Of a DNA stretch of 64,000 bases, positions 14,386 through 59,710 are shown piece by piece. Origin of the DNA: Escherichia phage vb_EcoM-VR5; the sequence record NC_028881.1; one strand, 5' to 3'. The notes beneath the pieces are model-generated. The model saw only the letters and a program-made list of their open reading frames with translations. It had not been told where the DNA came from and did not search any database. The position numbers and the translations under genes were made by a program. Positions within the stretch are counted from its first letter, which is position 1. The number at the start of each line of letters is the position of its first letter.

Positions 14386-14619
14386 TTAAACAATATCAGT
14401 AGGCGTAAACATTGCCTCGTTTTTGGTCTTCCAGTCAGCAGCATCAGTCACTACAGTTGAGTAGGCCGCTACCGCCGAAGGGAAAGTCTGATAATGAGCA
14501 TTAGCAATACGATGTGCATTAGAATAGATTTCAAACGGAACAGAAACCTCGGTACCTTTAACTTCTTTACCTACACCAGCTGCATGCGTGAAGGTTTTAA
14601 TATTAACGAAACCACCCAT
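14386..14619 (-). CDS. soc: small outer capsid protein
   Basis: 77-aa ORF; GFVNIKTF...HYQTFPS..AAYSTV matches my recollection of T4 Soc; TATAAATA late promoter upstream; terminator downstream. Confidence 0.85.
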   Translation of the reverse strand: MGGFVNIKTFTHAAGVGKEVKGTEVSVPFEIYSNAHRIANAHYQTFPSAVAAYSTVVTDAADWKTKNEAMFTPTDIV

Positions 14620-15187: not shown

Positions 15188-15844
15188 TTATTTCCTATTA
15201 AAGTTTTCTATCATTCGTCGATAACAAATATCAGGATATCCATTATCGACAGCTATTTTATTAAATTTGGTGCGTTTAGGTTTATTATTATAAACCCATA
15301 ATTCATAAAGCGCATCATAACTATCCCATATTTCTCCTCGCCTAGGATTTGGTAAACCGTATCGAGGTGAATTTTTACCGCTAAATCTTCCTTTTCGAGC
15401 TTTACTCATATTAGCCTTGGCTTCATCGGATATAATTTTATCTTTATGAGCTAGACGCATTTTGGCTTTAGTTTCTTCTGGGGTCTTTTTGCCTTTAATC
15501 CATGACGGCTTGCCATATCTAGGATTATTTTCACCTGTAACTAATAGTGAATTATTTTCCCTTAATGATGCTATAGTTCTGCTAGTTAATTTAACTCCTT
15601 TATTATATCTCATTAAATTAACGGCATGATGCAGACCTTTTACTTCAGGATACATTTTTGTTAAAAGCCTATGGGCTATAAAGTGCTCTCTTGGTAATAA
15701 AGCCACCAAATTATTTTTATCATCGGAACCATTCATACATTTGGGTACAATATGGTGTTCTTCTGTATAATATGGTAAGGACCGCTTGGTACCTCTTAAT
15801 TTTCCATTAGATATTAATTCATTGTATATTTTTTCATAGTTCAT
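15188..15844 (-). CDS. HNH homing endonuclease (freestanding, Mob-like) with NUMOD-type C-terminal DNA-binding repeats
   Basis: 218-aa ORF; HNH motif EEHHIVPKCMNG...NLVALLPREHFIAH; AT-rich; no SD upstream. Confidence 0.8.
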   Translation of the reverse strand: MNYEKIYNELISNGKLRGTKRSLPYYTEEHHIVPKCMNGSDDKNNLVALLPREHFIAHRLLTKMYPEVKGLHHAVNLMRYNKGVKLTSRTIASLRENNSLLVTGENNPRYGKPSWIKGKKTPEETKAKMRLAHKDKIISDEAKANMSKARKGRFSGKNSPRYGLPNPRRGEIWDSYDALYELWVYNNKPKRTKFNKIAVDNGYPDICYRRMIENFNRK

Positions 15845-15904: not shown

Positions 15905-16105
15905 ATGGGCAGTATTTTTTATCAAATCTGGAAATTGGCCGAAAAGAAAGACAAGAAAATGATGTTAGGTTTTCTTGCGCTAGACGTATTCCTTTGGAAT
16001 CTTTTAGTAGTCCCTGTAGCCGCTAGCCAAGGTGTAGTTTTACCAGCGGTTACAATGGAGCACGTGTTAAGCATAATTGGATTCTTTAGCGGAATTCCTG
16101 CCTAA
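15905..16105 (+). CDS. small hydrophobic membrane protein (66 aa), only plus-strand gene with expression signals
   Basis: ORF with strong SD AGGAGG 5 nt before ATG; late-promoter-like GAATAAATA upstream; convergent with gene 61. Confidence 0.5.
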   Translation: MGSIFYQIWKLAEKKDKKMMLGFLALDVFLWNLLVVPVAASQGVVLPAVTMEHVLSIIGFFSGIPA

Positions 16106-17130
16106 ATCTTGGAATATTTTGAAAGTCGCATTTTTGCCATTAAACCTTGTGCGATATTCTCTTTCATATAAGAAAGGACATCGTTTATATTGGCTTTATC
16201 TTTCATAACCATATCATTTATATCTTTAGAAGGCCATGGAGCCTTGTCCCAGAATAGAACCCTTTCACCGGCATCAACTAGACGTTGCATACGCTTAATT
16301 GTGTCAGGATGACGGGGTTCATTGTCCATTACCCATGCTCTTGTTTCTTTACATGGAACTATTGATAAGTCTAACGACCCACCAGTAATTGCTATTGCAT
16401 TAGGTACAAATAATGAATCTATAGGACCTTCCATTACCCACACCAACTGGCGTTCATCTATCGTATCCATTCCATATATTTTTGTAGCTTGGTCGTGAGC
16501 TTTAATTGTAATATATTTTTGCGGGGCATCTTTACGTAAAGCTCGACCCTGAAAGCTTTCAATTTGTTTATCCTTATTAAAAATAGGAATAACCAAACGA
16601 GGCTCAGGTATTTCTTTAGAATAGGTTCCTGGATTCACTGAGTTAACCAGCGCCGGCCACTCTTTCGTAAACCATAGTCTATTCCATTTGTTTTCGGGGA
16701 TGCATCGCAGAGTTACATATTTGATAATAGGATGGTCTTTAGGCATTCTATCTAATCGTTCACAGAAATTAAGCTTTTCGATGACAGGCATCTTAGCTTT
16801 AATTTTTTCAGATATCTCCACCTTAGGTGTAGCTTGTCTCCCGAACGATTGCTCTTTATGTTTCTCAAGAATATATTCTCGATATAAATCTGGCTCATAT
16901 TCGTATAGATACTTCTTAATTCCTGCTGAATAGTCACAATTAAAACAATGCAACATAATAGAACCATCGTTAGCCGGGTAAGCCCAAAATCGAGCTTTGT
17001 TCTCATCTTTTTGTGAGTCACCACATACACGACAACGACAGTTTAATTTAAAATCACTACCGGTTACTTGTCTGAATTTAGGTTGGTAATTCAAGGCACG
17101 TACAGCAAATTCTTTATCGACATATGACAT
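16102..17130 (-). CDS. 61: DNA primase (gp61)
   Basis: 342-aa ORF; zinc-binding CxxC...CxxC and TOPRIM region; length as T4 gp61. Confidence 0.9.
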   Translation of the reverse strand: MSYVDKEFAVRALNYQPKFRQVTGSDFKLNCRCRVCGDSQKDENKARFWAYPANDGSIMLHCFNCDYSAGIKKYLYEYEPDLYREYILEKHKEQSFGRQATPKVEISEKIKAKMPVIEKLNFCERLDRMPKDHPIIKYVTLRCIPENKWNRLWFTKEWPALVNSVNPGTYSKEIPEPRLVIPIFNKDKQIESFQGRALRKDAPQKYITIKAHDQATKIYGMDTIDERQLVWVMEGPIDSLFVPNAIAITGGSLDLSIVPCKETRAWVMDNEPRHPDTIKRMQRLVDAGERVLFWDKAPWPSKDINDMVMKDKANINDVLSYMKENIAQGLMAKMRLSKYSKI

Positions 17131-17141
17131 TATTTTTCCTT

Positions 17142-17168
17142 GGGCTCTAAATTAATAGAGCCATTATA
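17142..17168 (-). promoter_or_regulatory. extended -10 promoter (TGATATAAT) with adjacent hairpin upstream of gene 61
   Basis: -10 plus ggctcta/tagagcc stem. Confidence 0.4.
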
Positions 17169-17330
17169 TCATTCGTTTTTGGATTTTTCTTTACGCTTTT
17201 TAGATGGGATTTGTTCAGGCCCTTTGTTGACGACTGCGCCTGAGGTAGTTCCGGAGGCAATATTAGATGGATTTCCACCCGCATCACCGGCGACCATATC
17301 TTCGTTCACGAACTCTTTATATGTTTTCAT
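17169..17330 (-). CDS. small late protein with internal-protein-like capsid targeting sequence (53 aa)
   Basis: hand-translated MKTYKEFVNEDMVAGDAGGNPSN...KKRKEKSKNE; N-terminus like ipII/ipIII MKTY(Q/K)EFI; perfect TATAAATA plus SD AGGAG upstream. Confidence 0.55.
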   Translation of the reverse strand: MKTYKEFVNEDMVAGDAGGNPSNIASGTTSGAVVNKGPEQIPSKKRKEKSKNE

Positions 17331-17343
17331 AGGCTCCTGGCCT

Positions 17344-17351
17344 TATTTATA
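17344..17351 (-). promoter_or_regulatory. late promoter TATAAATA upstream of CTS small ORF
   Basis: exact TATAAATA followed by SD AGGAG and ATG. Confidence 0.5.
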
Positions 17352-17538
17352 TTACAAAGATTGCTTTGTCACCATTTGCATCAGTGACTTCATAAGTATC
17401 TTCGTGGTACAGTGGGATAATCCAAGTTACACCGTCACAGGCTATAACATGGATAGCTTCTTGGTCTTTTGATACGATTTCATATTCTTCGAACAGTTCG
17501 AATACAGAAATCTTAGAGCCCGTACACATTGCAGTCAT
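17347..17538 (-). CDS. hypothetical protein (63 aa)
   Basis: ORF. Confidence 0.45.
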   Translation of the reverse strand: MTAMCTGSKISVFELFEEYEIVSKDQEAIHVIACDGVTWIIPLYHEDTYEVTDANGDKAIFVI

Positions 17539-17734
17539 ATTGTTCCCTTCTTTTAATCAGATGACGGTGGGCCTTTTTAAGCTTACGAATCTGTCTTTTA
17601 GTAGGACGCGCAACGTAAGCTTGTGTAGTTACTCGTCCGAAAACTCCATACTTGGGAGACGGAGTATCAATGAAGACTTCCCATTGACAAGAGTAACCGT
17701 ATATTGCTTTAGAGAATTGAGTTAAGACAAACAT
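17513..17734 (-). CDS. hypothetical protein (73 aa)
   Basis: ORF. Confidence 0.5.
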   Translation of the reverse strand: MFVLTQFSKAIYGYSCQWEVFIDTPSPKYGVFGRVTTQAYVARPTKRQIRKLKKAHRHLIKRREQYDCNVYGL

Positions 17735-17735
17735 A

Positions 17736-18182
17736 TCAACCTCGGTTCATAAAGGCATTAAAAATCTGGTCGTCAATTGAATAAACTGGAGCTTCAAGAA
17801 TTTTCAAAAGACTGTTTTTGATGTACTTGCTAGGGATACCCATATTAACGACATCATTATTCAATTTATTGTCTGGATTGATGTCTTTAAATTCAAACCC
17901 TTCAAACTCAACCTTGTCAGGAATACCATCAGCGAAAAAATAAACCAATTGATGCATTGTATTGCATGAAAATAATTTAGACCTCACTGCAATAAGTTCT
18001 TGCCAGTGGTTTAATTCTCTATTAAGAAGTTTATGAGCAAATACAATCCTATCATCGCTATCAACAATAAAATAGCCTAGGTATTGATGGTCGTCGCTCC
18101 AATACATCCTGTATGCCTGGGCATTTGGATTTTTACAACGAAGCTTTTTAATAATCAAAGTTCTGTTAATCATTTTATTCAC
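17736..18182 (-). CDS. hypothetical protein (148 aa)
   Basis: ORF. Confidence 0.6.
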   Translation of the reverse strand: MNKMINRTLIIKKLRCKNPNAQAYRMYWSDDHQYLGYFIVDSDDRIVFAHKLLNRELNHWQELIAVRSKLFSCNTMHQLVYFFADGIPDKVEFEGFEFKDINPDNKLNNDVVNMGIPSKYIKNSLLKILEAPVYSIDDQIFNAFMNRG

Positions 18183-18527: not shown

Positions 18528-18767
18528 TTATTTTAAAGAATCTTCCAAATAAATTTTACGGAATTTACGTTTTGTCTGACGAATCTGACGCTTAGTAGGC
18601 TTCACAGGAAATTCGAAGAACTCCACGTATTCTTGTTCATAATCACCATTGCTGACTGAAAGAACCAGTTCCCAGTTGTTTACGGTACGTTGGATAAATT
18701 CCTGGTGCTTACCGAAAGATTTATTCCAAAAAGAACTAGGAGTCGGTTTCATTAATACAATATTCAT
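18528..18767 (-). CDS. hypothetical protein (79 aa)
   Basis: ORF. Confidence 0.5.
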   Translation of the reverse strand: MNIVLMKPTPSSFWNKSFGKHQEFIQRTVNNWELVLSVSNGDYEQEYVEFFEFPVKPTKRQIRQTKRKFRKIYLEDSLK

Positions 18768-18768
18768 T

Positions 18769-18888
18769 TTATTCCTCGTCTTCGTATTCGCTGTCGCAGT
18801 CTAAACAGGTTGCGTTGTCCCAAGCATCAAATACTGCCTGTTCTTCACATACAGAACAACCACATACTACACATTCAAACTCTTCCAT
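18769..18888 (-). CDS. small Cys-rich protein (39 aa)
   Basis: hand-translated MEEFECVVCGCSVCEEQ...CLDCDSEYEDEE; RBS GAGGAAA. Confidence 0.4.
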   Translation of the reverse strand: MEEFECVVCGCSVCEEQAVFDAWDNATCLDCDSEYEDEE

Positions 18889-58707: not shown

Positions 58708-59007
58708 CTAGAAAGAACCAGAGCCTTTAATTGTGTTCTGGCGTCCTTTATTTTCTACTTCAGAGTGGTCGATTTCGTAAGCTTGTGCTACACCAAAGGA
58801 TTTTTTAATTTTGGCCAACGACCCTTTAGAAATAACAATGTTAAAGGTATTGCCTTTAGAAAAATCTACCAAATCTACAGTAACGCCGTTATTGGTTAAA
58901 CTATTAACAATAGCATCAACATATTGTTGGTCTAAAGTTCCCTGAACGCCGATTTGAAAAGCTTTAGGTGCTTTAGCTTCAGTGATAAATTCTTGATATG
59001 TTTTCAT
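58708..59007 (-). CDS. ipII: internal protein II
   Basis: 99-aa ORF with N-terminal capsid targeting sequence MKTYQEFITEA. Confidence 0.7.
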   Translation of the reverse strand: MKTYQEFITEAKAPKAFQIGVQGTLDQQYVDAIVNSLTNNGVTVDLVDFSKGNTFNIVISKGSLAKIKKSFGVAQAYEIDHSEVENKGRQNTIKGSGSF

Positions 59008-59140: not shown

Positions 59141-59710
59141 TTAACGGGCTGCATTAGCAACAGCGTAAGCGTACTGAATATTAGCGTCTTTAAACTTACC
59201 TTTAGAGGTATCTATTTCTGCCTTAAAGCCGCCTTTAGTCATAACATCGGCAAATTCTTTACGGAAAGCCATTGCATCAAGACCTTTCCATGATGATTTA
59301 TGCTTGGCAAATTCAAGACCTGCGAAGTTGACAGCTTTAGCCAATTTATTATCAATAGCCCATTTACCGGCTTTAGGCACAAACTTCGGGCCCTTCTGTT
59401 TAGAGAACAGTTTTAAATTCCAGCGGCGAAGGTCCGAATCAGCTTTAACAAATTCGGAGTCTAAATTACTAGCAACAACATCGTCAATATGAGCGAATTT
59501 AAGTCCGTCAACTTCAATATTTAGGTCGTTACGCCAGCGAAGTCCTTCCCAGGCGAAAGCTTTAAAGTCAGAAGCTTTTGTAGCTAAGTACCGTTCAATA
59601 GGAGCTGTTTTAGCGTCAAAACCGTTTCCTCGGTAGGTCCACTCATCTTTGTTAATGCCTTGGGCTTTTCCTACAGAAGCTTCGGCGATAAATTCTTTAT
59701 ATGTTTTCAT
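59141..59710 (-). CDS. ipIII: internal protein III
   Basis: 189-aa ORF with MKTYKEFIAEA capsid targeting sequence. Confidence 0.7.
   Translation of the reverse strand: MKTYKEFIAEASVGKAQGINKDEWTYRGNGFDAKTAPIERYLATKASDFKAFAWEGLRWRNDLNIEVDGLKFAHIDDVVASNLDSEFVKADSDLRRWNLKLFSKQKGPKFVPKAGKWAIDNKLAKAVNFAGLEFAKHKSSWKGLDAMAFRKEFADVMTKGGFKAEIDTSKGKFKDANIQYAYAVANAAR

What the first reader, a model, noticed from the sequence alone, without database searches (positions are those of the whole stretch)
17169..17351. Unannotated 53-aa late gene with an internal-protein-like capsid targeting sequence
A small minus-strand ORF (MKTYKEFVNEDMVAGDAGGNPSNIASGTTSGAVVNKGPEQIPSKKRKEKSKNE) starts with the same MKTY(K/Q)EF-I/V-x-E signature as ipII and ipIII in this window, and has a perfect late promoter TATAAATA plus SD AGGAG. 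It lies between gene 61 and the 61.x cluster, not with the other ip genes, and ends in a lysine-rich tail. It could be a packaged, injected peptide, a class that includes anti-restriction proteins.
Basis: partly seen in the sequence, partly recalled or inferred. Interest (0 to 1): 0.65.

Follow-up and report, generated by a model that had tools for sequence, protein, structure and literature searches.

The report
T4 gene 61.1: capsid-fragment mimic peptide
The small ORF is real but already catalogued: it is T4 gene 61.1, of unknown function. It most likely encodes a short peptide that is directed into the assembling phage head, trimmed by the head protease, and copies the "N-fist" segment of the major capsid protein.

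Summary
The 53-aa minus-strand ORF (17169..17330), its MKTYKEF start, AGGAG and TATAAATA (17344..17351) are all present. It is not unannotated. The window is a JS98-like Dhakavirus, and the ORF is the ortholog of T4 gene 61.1 (PHROG 1823, function unknown), found between helicase 41 and primase 61 as far out as Aeromonas and Vibrio phages.

New here: residues 4-41 are homologous to major capsid protein gp23 residues 59-96. That stretch is the gp21 cleavage site (LTE|A) plus the 25-residue N-fist (profile vs PDB E 3.6e-7; hhalign 97%).

The family has one conserved payload (MVAGDxGG..NIAxGTTxGA..GP..KKRK). It sits behind interchangeable leaders: the internal-protein CTS, another short leader, or a ~105-aa helical domain. 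A [LIVMF]-x-E site precedes the payload in 139/141 homologs. An exact late promoter is about 20-fold enriched upstream.

Best reading (about 0.55): a leader-targeted, gp21-processed head peptide. Its role after cleavage is unresolved.

Caveats: T4 61.1 is dispensable, is transcribed early, and has never been detected as a protein. There is no evidence for anti-restriction activity.

The parts
17344..17351 (-). T4-type late promoter box TATAAATA. The TAA stop of the upstream 63-aa ORF lies inside it.
   Evidence: Read directly. One of only 4 copies on this strand in 64 kb. An exact box lies in -50..-8 of 61.1 in 11/27 dereplicated contexts, against 5/262 for other same-strand ORFs.
17334..17338 (-). 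Shine-Dalgarno AGGAG, 3 nt before the ATG.
   Evidence: Read directly.
17301..17330 (-). Codons 1-10, MKTYKEFVNE: an internal-protein-type capsid targeting sequence / propeptide. Cleavage is predicted after E10 (V-N-E|D).
   Evidence: 8/10 identical to the ipIII-like leader MKTYKEFIAE of the same window. CTS determinants are summarised in PMC9026906. The site aligns in register with the gp23 LTE|A site.
17217..17300 (-). Codons 11-38, DMVAGDAGGNPSNIASGTTSGAVVNKGP: paralog of the gp23* N-fist (gp23 residues 66-93).
   Evidence: phmmer vs PDB E 9e-4; profile E 3.6e-7, with gp23 the only significant hit; hhalign probability 97.3%, E 2e-11. Invariant within Dhakavirus except two adjacent substitutions in two contigs, L008/L009.
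17172..17216 (-). Codons 39-53, EQIPSKKRKEKSKNE: basic C-terminal tail. KKRK aligns roughly with the conserved VRR of gp23.
   Evidence: K44 is invariant and PxKKRK is conserved in alignment A1. hhalign of the long form runs through gp23 ...GMVRR.
17169..17171 (-). Stop codon TGA.
16102..17130 (-). Context: gene 61 (DNA primase), immediately downstream.
17347..17538 (-). Context: a 63-aa ORF (RB69 orf033c-like) immediately upstream. The same ORF precedes both short and long 61.1 forms in other genera.

Best explanation
The ORF is the Dhakavirus ortholog of T4 gene 61.1. It encodes a pre-peptide with three parts.

(1) A removable N-terminal leader, here the internal-protein-type capsid targeting sequence MKTYKEFVNE.
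(2) A 28-residue copy of the segment of major capsid protein gp23 that follows its maturation cleavage site (the N-fist).
(3) A Lys/Arg tail.

Proposed mechanism. The gene is transcribed from its own late promoter, and probably also by read-through from upstream early or middle promoters. The leader docks the pre-peptide on the scaffolding core of the assembling prohead. The prohead protease gp21 cuts after E10, at a site homologous in register to the gp23 LTE|A site. This releases a 43-aa, 4.4-kDa, pI ~9.3 intrinsically disordered peptide inside the head.

Shown: gene identity, conservation, homology to gp23 59-96, conservation of the hydrophobic-x-Glu site, interchangeable leaders, and late-promoter enrichment.

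Inferred: targeting, cleavage and packaging.

Unresolved: what the mature peptide does. It could be a DNA-associated peptide co-injected like the internal proteins. It could instead compete with, or substitute for, the gp23 N-terminal region in contacts with the core or the lattice.
For: - Identity and synteny: annotated 61.1 in JS98 and T4; PHROG 1823 at E 6.6e-33. The order 41 - 61.1 - 61 is kept in Aeromonas PX29 and Vibrio D490; in Vibrio VS1 the long form lies directly upstream of the primase.
- gp23 homology: PDB phmmer E 9e-4 and profile E 3.6e-7, with gp23 the only significant hit. hhalign gives 97.3% and E 2e-11 for both the short and long forms, and spans the cleavage site.
- N-fist: it is gp23 residues 66-91. 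The N-terminal region aa 66-105 is inside and disordered in the unexpanded head, where it probably contacts the scaffold, and is externalised on expansion.
- Cleavage motif: [LIVMF]-x-E lies within 1-2 residues of MVAGD in 139/141 homologs.
- Leader: CTS determinants Y4, F7, V8 and E10 are present. Three leader types carry the same payload.
- Long leader: it belongs to a family of 1858 clusters with varied C-terminal cargo. Hydrophobic-x-Glu is enriched about 3-fold at the junction (0.066 vs 0.019 and 0.029).
- Structure: AF2 gives a confident helical leader and an unstructured payload.
- Late promoter: exact TATAAATA upstream in 41% of contexts against 1.9% of controls. In this window only soc shares such a start-proximal box.
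- Selection: within Dhakavirus nearly all substitutions fall in the leader; the payload varies only in two contigs.
- Precedent: giant-phage head proteins carry 124-127-aa propeptides removed by the prohead protease.
Against: - No direct evidence exists that any 61.1 protein is in a virion or is cleaved.
- The T4 61.1 protein was not detected in a time-resolved proteome, and its transcript was classed as early.
- T4 has only TATGAATA upstream, not TATAAATA.
- The T4 head mass-spectrometry study does not mention it. A 4.4-kDa peptide is, however, easily lost on gels.
- The leader is not conserved and does not track the phage's own internal-protein CTS. JS98 has MKSFKEVMNE and HMGUkp2 has MTLLDQYKQSLSE, while their IPs keep MKTY.EFI.E.
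- The gene sits in a replication-gene cluster.
- T4 61.1 is dispensable (CRISPRi-ART 'Not Fit'; transposon insertions at 13/13 sites), so it is not an essential structural part.
- Published 3.3-3.4 A head maps report no extra peptide. This rests on what the reviews read here say, not on a map inspection.
Confidence: 0.55

Rival explanations
1. Trans-acting N-fist. The mature peptide binds the capsid lattice at N-fist pockets that lack a cis N-fist. These are next to the gp24 pentamers, which have no N-fist, or at the portal, where five gp23 N-fists are disordered. It would act as a small stabilising or assembly-tuning capsid component.
For: The payload matches exactly the segment that contacts four neighbouring subunits and helps form the Soc site. 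gp24 forms N-arms but no N-fists. Head-length mutations A66D, A94V and G97S map to this region of gp23. The payload is under strong purifying selection.
Against: N-fists end up on the outer surface after expansion, whereas a core-targeted peptide would be inside. No unassigned density is reported in the head structures discussed. The gene is dispensable in T4. The basic tail has no counterpart role in the lattice.
Confidence: 0.12
2. Cytoplasmic decoy or regulator. The uncleaved protein mimics the gp23 N-terminal region. It would titrate a partner that recognises that region: a host sensor of capsid protein, a chaperone, or the gp21 protease.
For: Homology to gp23 59-96. The homology stops just before the conserved block that, from my own recollection, contains the Gol region recognised with EF-Tu by the Lit protease; Gol is described in general terms. 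T4 transcribes the gene early. It is dispensable in laboratory K-12, as anti-defence genes usually are. It neighbours other counter-defence genes (dmd, sp, and 61.2/AdfA in T4).
Against: This does not explain the invariant protease-type site, the swap between CTS and 105-aa leaders, or the late promoter. There are no hits in PADLOC. It is not among the conditionally essential genes named in the main text of the transposon study.
Confidence: 0.15
3. Replication-associated small protein. Its conserved position between helicase 41 and primase 61 would reflect a role at the replication fork, and the gp23 resemblance would be a relic.
For: Synteny 41 - 61.1 - 61 from T4 to Aeromonas and Vibrio phages. 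Early transcript in T4. The basic tail could bind DNA.
Against: The head gene 40 and soc also lie in this early region, so position is weak evidence. The late promoter, the cleavage motif and the MCP homology are left unexplained. In pelagiphages the leader-domain gene is not next to 41/61.
Confidence: 0.08
4. Spurious or non-functional ORF.
For: It is very short, and the protein is undetected in T4 proteomics.
Against: It is conserved as an ORF in hundreds of genomes across several genera, with an invariant motif. Synonymous changes are present in every comparison, and replacements fall almost entirely in the leader.
Confidence: 0.01

Closest known systems
T4 gene 61.1 (NP_049649; PHROG 1823), a conserved hypothetical protein
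   Same: Ortholog. It has the same position upstream of gene 61, and about 85% identity over residues 1-42 in T2, T6 and RB14 (83% in T4). T4 reads MKTFKEFIKEDMVAGDSGGNPENISIGTTSGAVVNKGPEQIPKKKKEESKEKEE.
   Different: The Dhakavirus copy has its own exact late promoter and an intergenic spacer. The T4 copy abuts 61.2 and has only TATGAATA.
[quoted passage not shown]
   Same: The N-terminal decapeptide MKTY(K/Q)EF(I/V)xE ends in a hydrophobic-x-Glu site. Both are small and basic, non-essential in laboratory hosts, and late-expressed genes embedded among early genes.
   Different: The payload is only 43 aa, is highly conserved across genera (IPs are hypervariable), and is homologous to the capsid protein. 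The leader is replaced by unrelated leaders in other genera. Packaging has not been shown.
Major capsid protein gp23: propeptide junction plus N-fist (residues ~53-101)
   Same: Homologous over 45-48 residues, including the cleavage site in the same register.
   Different: It has none of the HK97-fold body, and a Lys/Arg tail replaces the N-arm.
Long-form 61.1 (PHROG 2086; RB69-like, Karamvirus, Gelderlandvirus, Acinetobacter, Aeromonas and Vibrio T4-like phages)
   Same: Same payload, same cleavage motif and same locus.
   Different: It carries a ~105-aa helical leader with no Pfam family and no PDB fold match. That leader occurs in 1858 clusters with other C-terminal cargo.
Giant-phage (SPN3US / phiKZ) head proteins with long N-terminal propeptides
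   Same: A leader of 100 residues or more is removed at an x-x-Glu site by a T4-gp21-type prohead protease. This is an analogy for the long form.
   Different: No sequence relationship was tested or claimed.

Membership tests
T4 gene 61.1 family (PHROG 1823 / 2086) | Sequence homology over the whole protein | tested here: met
   phrog_1823 at E 6.6e-33 over residues 1-53; phrog_2086 at E 7.7e-17 over residues 7-52. 83% identity to T4 over residues 1-42.
T4 gene 61.1 family (PHROG 1823 / 2086) | Position immediately upstream of primase gene 61, same strand | tested here: met
CTS-bearing internal head proteins (IPI/II/III type) | N-terminal decapeptide with an aromatic residue at position 4 and Phe at position 7 (targeting determinants) | tested here: met
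   The window ORF has Y4 and F7; determinants as summarised. These are not kept in JS98 (F4, V7) or in Klebsiella phage HMGUkp2.
CTS-bearing internal head proteins (IPI/II/III type) | gp21-type site: hydrophobic residue at P3 and Glu at P1, at residues 8-10 | tested here: met
   V8-N9-E10 here. [LIVMF]-x-E is present in 139/141 homologs.
CTS-bearing internal head proteins (IPI/II/III type) | Cleaved by gp21 and physically present inside the capsid | not testable with these tools
   No proteomic record was found. The T4 protein was undetected and is absent from the T4 head mass-spectrometry paper.
CTS-bearing internal head proteins (IPI/II/III type) | Late-period expression | tested here: inconclusive
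   An exact late-promoter box is present here and enriched across genera. There are no transcript data for this phage, and the T4 ortholog is classed as early, as are ipII and ipIII in that dataset.
HK97-fold major capsid protein (gp23/gp24) | HK97 fold (A and P domains, E-loop) | tested here: not met
   Only 53 aa. Homology is limited to gp23 59-96. The payload is predicted to be unstructured. Database names such as 'major capsid protein' for orthologs are over-annotations.
Anti-restriction internal proteins (IPI* type) | Homology to IPI, or evidence of nuclease inhibition | tested here: not met
   Beyond the leader there is no similarity to internal proteins: phrog_2667 matches only residues 1-12, at E 0.18. 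Inhibition itself is not testable here.

The most novel reading that the evidence does not exclude
A near-universal small gene of T4-like phages encodes a free-standing copy of the capsid protein's N-fist, delivered by interchangeable cleavable leaders. The copy would act in trans. Either it completes or tunes the capsid lattice at sites that lack a cis N-fist (gp24 vertices, portal). Or it is injected with the DNA as a mimic of the capsid protein's N-terminus and blunts host sensors of capsid protein. More broadly, the ~105-aa leader domain (1858 clusters, varied cargo, protease-type junction) would be a previously unrecognised general module for loading cargo into heads of T4-superfamily phages.
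Probability: 0.2. Interest if true: 0.8.

Novelty: new variant of a known kind. Interest (0 to 1): 0.55.

Why it matters
Gene 61.1 is one of the few small ORFs conserved across diverged T4-like genomes, and it still has no function (Nolan 2006; CRISPRi-ART annotation).

The analysis gives it a concrete, testable identity: a leader, a head-protease site and an N-fist paralog. That turns an 'unknown' into a direct experiment, namely one mass-spectrometry search for DMVAGD...VVNK in virions.

If the reading is correct, it adds a conserved peptide to the inventory of the T4 head. It also shows the capsid targeting sequence being exchanged for a 105-aa domain on the same cargo. That would point to a large, uncharacterised family of candidate head-loading domains with diverse cargo, which is relevant to protein delivery with T4 vectors and to phage-host conflict.

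If it is wrong, 61.1 is still a clear case of a capsid-protein fragment duplicated and kept under selection.

Tried and rejected
- Pfam, NCBIfam and PADLOC gave no hits for the short or long form.
- I recalled that the 'N-whisker' at the portal was part of gp23. Reading the paper showed it belongs to gp20, so I dropped that idea.
- Payload versus own-phage N-fist co-variation: gp23 N-fists are almost invariant among enteric phages, and the Vibrio D490 pair gave only ambiguous shared changes. No claim is made.
- Leader versus own-phage IP CTS co-variation: negative in JS98 and in Klebsiella phage HMGUkp2.
- Virion proteomics or phenotype: searches for 'gp61.1', MKTY strings and T4-like structural proteomes found nothing functional. 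The Miller 2003 review is not held.
- The internal ATG at M12 (17297) as an alternative start: it has no SD and is not favoured.
- The plus-strand 110-aa ORF overlapping the locus (17140..17472, TTG start) was not examined separately. The minus-strand frame is the one annotated and conserved across genera.
- The marine relatives' context (a DUF7207 neighbour, with pol/UvsX/41 on contig L135) gave no functional clue.

Full report
OBSERVATION

TATAAATA lies at 17351..17344 and AGGAG at 17338..17334, 3 nt before the ATG. Only three ORFs in the window begin MK[ST][YF][KQE][ED][FL]: this one and the ipII-like and ipIII-like genes at 58708..59007 and 59141..59710. At the DNA level the first 33 nt are 25/33 and 26/33 identical to the two ip genes.

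TATAAATA is depleted in the window: 0 copies on the plus strand and 4 on the minus strand, against about 4.5-5 expected per strand. Only two of the four lie 13-31 nt before a start codon, those of soc and of this ORF. The sequence observation is therefore correct and not a chance pattern.

IDENTITY

The window is a JS98-like Dhakavirus: 97% identical to ESCO10 and 93% to JS98 over the locus. In JS98 the ORF is annotated as gene 61.1, 'similar to T4 gp61.1'. In T4 the ortholog (T4p034) has the same position directly upstream of primase gene 61. 'Unannotated' is therefore wrong.

The neighbours are the expected ones: Dmd, Spackle, two DUF7279 proteins and helicase 41. tblastn finds relatives in 1515 phage records. 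Nolan et al. 2006 listed 61.1 among the conserved ORFs of six diverged T4-like genomes with no function. It is still 'unknown function' in the 2025 CRISPRi-ART annotation.

FAMILY ANATOMY

Loci from IMG/VR and GenBank show one conserved payload behind three kinds of leader. The payload is (D/E/S)MVAGDxGGxxxNIAxGTTxGAxxNKGPExxPxKKRK.

- (i) The MKTY-type decapeptide, in Tequatrovirus, Dhakavirus and related genera.
- (ii) Other 10-13-residue leaders, such as MTLLDQYKQSLSE and MLTYNEFIRLKE.
- (iii) A ~105-residue domain (PHROG 2086), in RB69-like, Karamvirus, Gelderlandvirus, Acinetobacter, Aeromonas and Vibrio phages. In the Aeromonas and Vibrio D490 loci the gene again sits between 41 and 61.

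A hydrophobic-x-Glu motif lies within one or two residues of MVAGD in 139 of 141 homologs. Within Dhakavirus nearly all amino-acid changes fall in the leader; the payload varies only at two adjacent residues in two contigs.

HOMOLOGY TO THE CAPSID PROTEIN

A phmmer search of PDB sequences with the 53 residues hits only T4 gp23, residues 59-96 (E 9e-4). A profile of 18 orthologs raises this to E 3.6e-7. Profile-profile comparison with gp23 N-termini gives 97.3% probability and E 2e-11 for both short and long forms.

The alignment puts FVNE|DMVAGD... on FLTE|AEIGGD.... The predicted cut is therefore in the same register as the known gp21 cut after gp23 Glu65. In the long form the similarity extends upstream (KEIF.ALP.FE ~ EKISEAFGSFLTE) and downstream to the VRR motif.

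The matched part of mature gp23 is the N-fist, residues 66-91. This is an unusual 25-residue element that contacts four subunits and helps form the Soc site. The surrounding N-terminal region (aa 66-105) is disordered and inside the unexpanded head, where it probably touches the scaffolding core, and moves outside on expansion. Head-length mutations A66D, A94V and G97S map to that region. gp24 has no N-fist, and five N-fists next to the portal are disordered.

Some databases name orthologs 'major capsid protein' or 'major capsid domain-containing protein'. This is an automatic echo of the similarity, not a correct product name.

EXPRESSION SIGNALS

An exact TATAAATA lies in -50..-8 of the 61.1 start in 11 of 27 non-identical upstream contexts. 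The figure for other same-strand ORFs in the same loci is 5 of 262. Matches of 7/8 or better occur in 67% against 13%. The surrounding intergenic sequences differ between genera, which argues for selection on the box.

T4 itself has only TATGAATA, and its 61.1 start abuts 61.2. In a T4 time course the 61.1 transcript is classed as early and the protein was not detected; ipII and ipIII transcripts are also 'early' in that table.

THE LONG LEADER

A profile search of 1.84 billion representatives finds 1858 clusters (600 at E<=1e-10). Most match only the ~105-residue leader domain and carry different C-terminal parts. Some keep the N-fist-like payload. A few have a GDAG..NI..(Y/F)DP variant. Most have another, apparently beta-rich domain.

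Pelagibacter phage HTVC008M and Methylophilales phage Melnitz are of the last kind, and their gp23 has a much shorter N-fist region. With only two genomes this is no more than a hint.

Hydrophobic-x-Glu motifs are about three times denser in the 40 residues after the domain than inside it or further downstream, and 97 of 102 sequences have one. AlphaFold2 with a 102-sequence alignment gives a confident helical leader (pLDDT above 85 for residues 11-70) and no structure for the payload. No PDB fold match was found.

The pattern is a conserved N-terminal module, a protease-type junction and variable cargo. That is what a cleavable head-targeting propeptide would look like. Giant phages offer a precedent, with 124-127-residue propeptides. 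This remains inference.

FUNCTIONAL GENOMICS

T4 61.1 knock-down has no fitness cost. All 13 TA sites tolerate transposon insertion, so the gene is classed 'Non-essential', whereas core genes 67 and 68 are essential. The main text of the transposon study never mentions it, and so does not list it among conditionally essential genes. The T4 head mass-spectrometry paper does not mention it either.

MECHANISM AND RIVALS

I commit, at about 0.55, to a leader-targeted, gp21-processed head peptide. The leader docks on the scaffolding core, gp21 cuts after E10, and a 43-residue basic disordered peptide (4.4 kDa, pI ~9.3) is released inside the head.

Its later role is open. One possibility is a DNA-associated peptide co-injected like the internal proteins. 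Another is a competitor or substitute for the gp23 N-terminal region. The trans-N-fist lattice role (0.12), a cytoplasmic mimic or decoy (0.15) and a replication role (0.08) are the rivals. A spurious ORF is excluded by the conservation.

The main weaknesses are the following:
- There is no protein-level evidence.
- The T4 copy has early-only signals.
- The leader does not follow the phage's own internal-protein CTS in JS98 or in Klebsiella phage HMGUkp2.

COMPARISON AND NOVELTY

The gene is known and its function is not. It works most like the CTS-bearing internal proteins, but it fails to be a simple member of that family. Its cargo is conserved rather than hypervariable and is a capsid-protein fragment. 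The CTS is only one of three leaders.

I found no paper in the held library that notes the CTS, the protease site or the N-fist homology of 61.1. I rate it a new variant of a known kind, with interest of about 0.55. It would catch the attention of a head-assembly specialist and can be tested by a single mass-spectrometry experiment. It is not established, and the gene is dispensable in the laboratory.

Noticed in passing
window 15188..15844 (-): A 218-aa HNH/NUMOD3 homing-endonuclease-like ORF lies between genes 56 and 61. JS98 has only about 290 bp of spacer there, and ESCO10 has a different 155-aa ORF. This looks like a mobile insertion.
   Followed up: partly
window 17736..18182 (-): The 148-aa ORF at the place of T4 61.2 (AdfA, anti-DarT factor) shares only its last ~15 residues (SIDDQIFNAFMNRG) with AdfA (Pfam AdfA, E 0.0075, profile positions 197-211). 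This looks like a module swap that kept the junction to the next gene.
   Followed up: partly
window 17513..17734 (-) and 18528..18767 (-): Two DUF7279 paralogs (73 aa and 79 aa, the latter the 61.4 ortholog) lie about 0.8 kb apart. Both contain PTKRQIR..KK.
   Followed up: no
whole window, both strands: TATAAATA is absent from the plus strand and occurs 4 times on the minus strand, against about 4.5-5 expected per strand. The start-proximal copies precede soc (14658, start at 14619) and 61.1. A third (52956) lies 89 nt before a 97-aa signal-peptide ORF. The fourth (58259) lies inside the end of denV.
   Followed up: partly
loci L129, L130, L131, L134, L135 (marine and metagenomic T4-like contigs): The ~105-aa leader domain of long-form 61.1 is a large family (1858 clusters) with varied C-terminal cargo. 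In four different gene contexts examined (five loci, two of them the same protein) a DUF7207 gene lies directly upstream. Neither has a known function.
   Followed up: partly
BFVD hit Q7Y5A6 (RB69ORF032c, 63 aa): RB69's annotated ORF032c matches only the first ~61 residues of the long-form leader (72% identity). The RB69 61.1 gene may therefore be split or mis-annotated in that record.
   Followed up: no
window 17331..17343: The palindrome AGGCC-AGG-AGCCT overlaps the Shine-Dalgarno sequence between the late promoter and the ATG. The scan flagged it as terminator-like on the opposite strand. It could form a 4-5-bp hairpin at the very 5' end of a late transcript.
   Followed up: no
window 18769..18888 (-): A 39-aa Cys-rich ORF (CVVCGC...CLDC) lies between dmd and the 61.4 ortholog. 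It appears to correspond to a 46-aa 'hypothetical protein' in ESCO10, and no CDS is annotated at this position in JS98.
   Followed up: no
locus L128 (Proteus phage PM2, NC_055727): Gene 23 is annotated as two CDS (105 aa and 410 aa), split just after the N-fist/VRR region. This is either a frameshift or sequencing error, or a real split.
   Followed up: no
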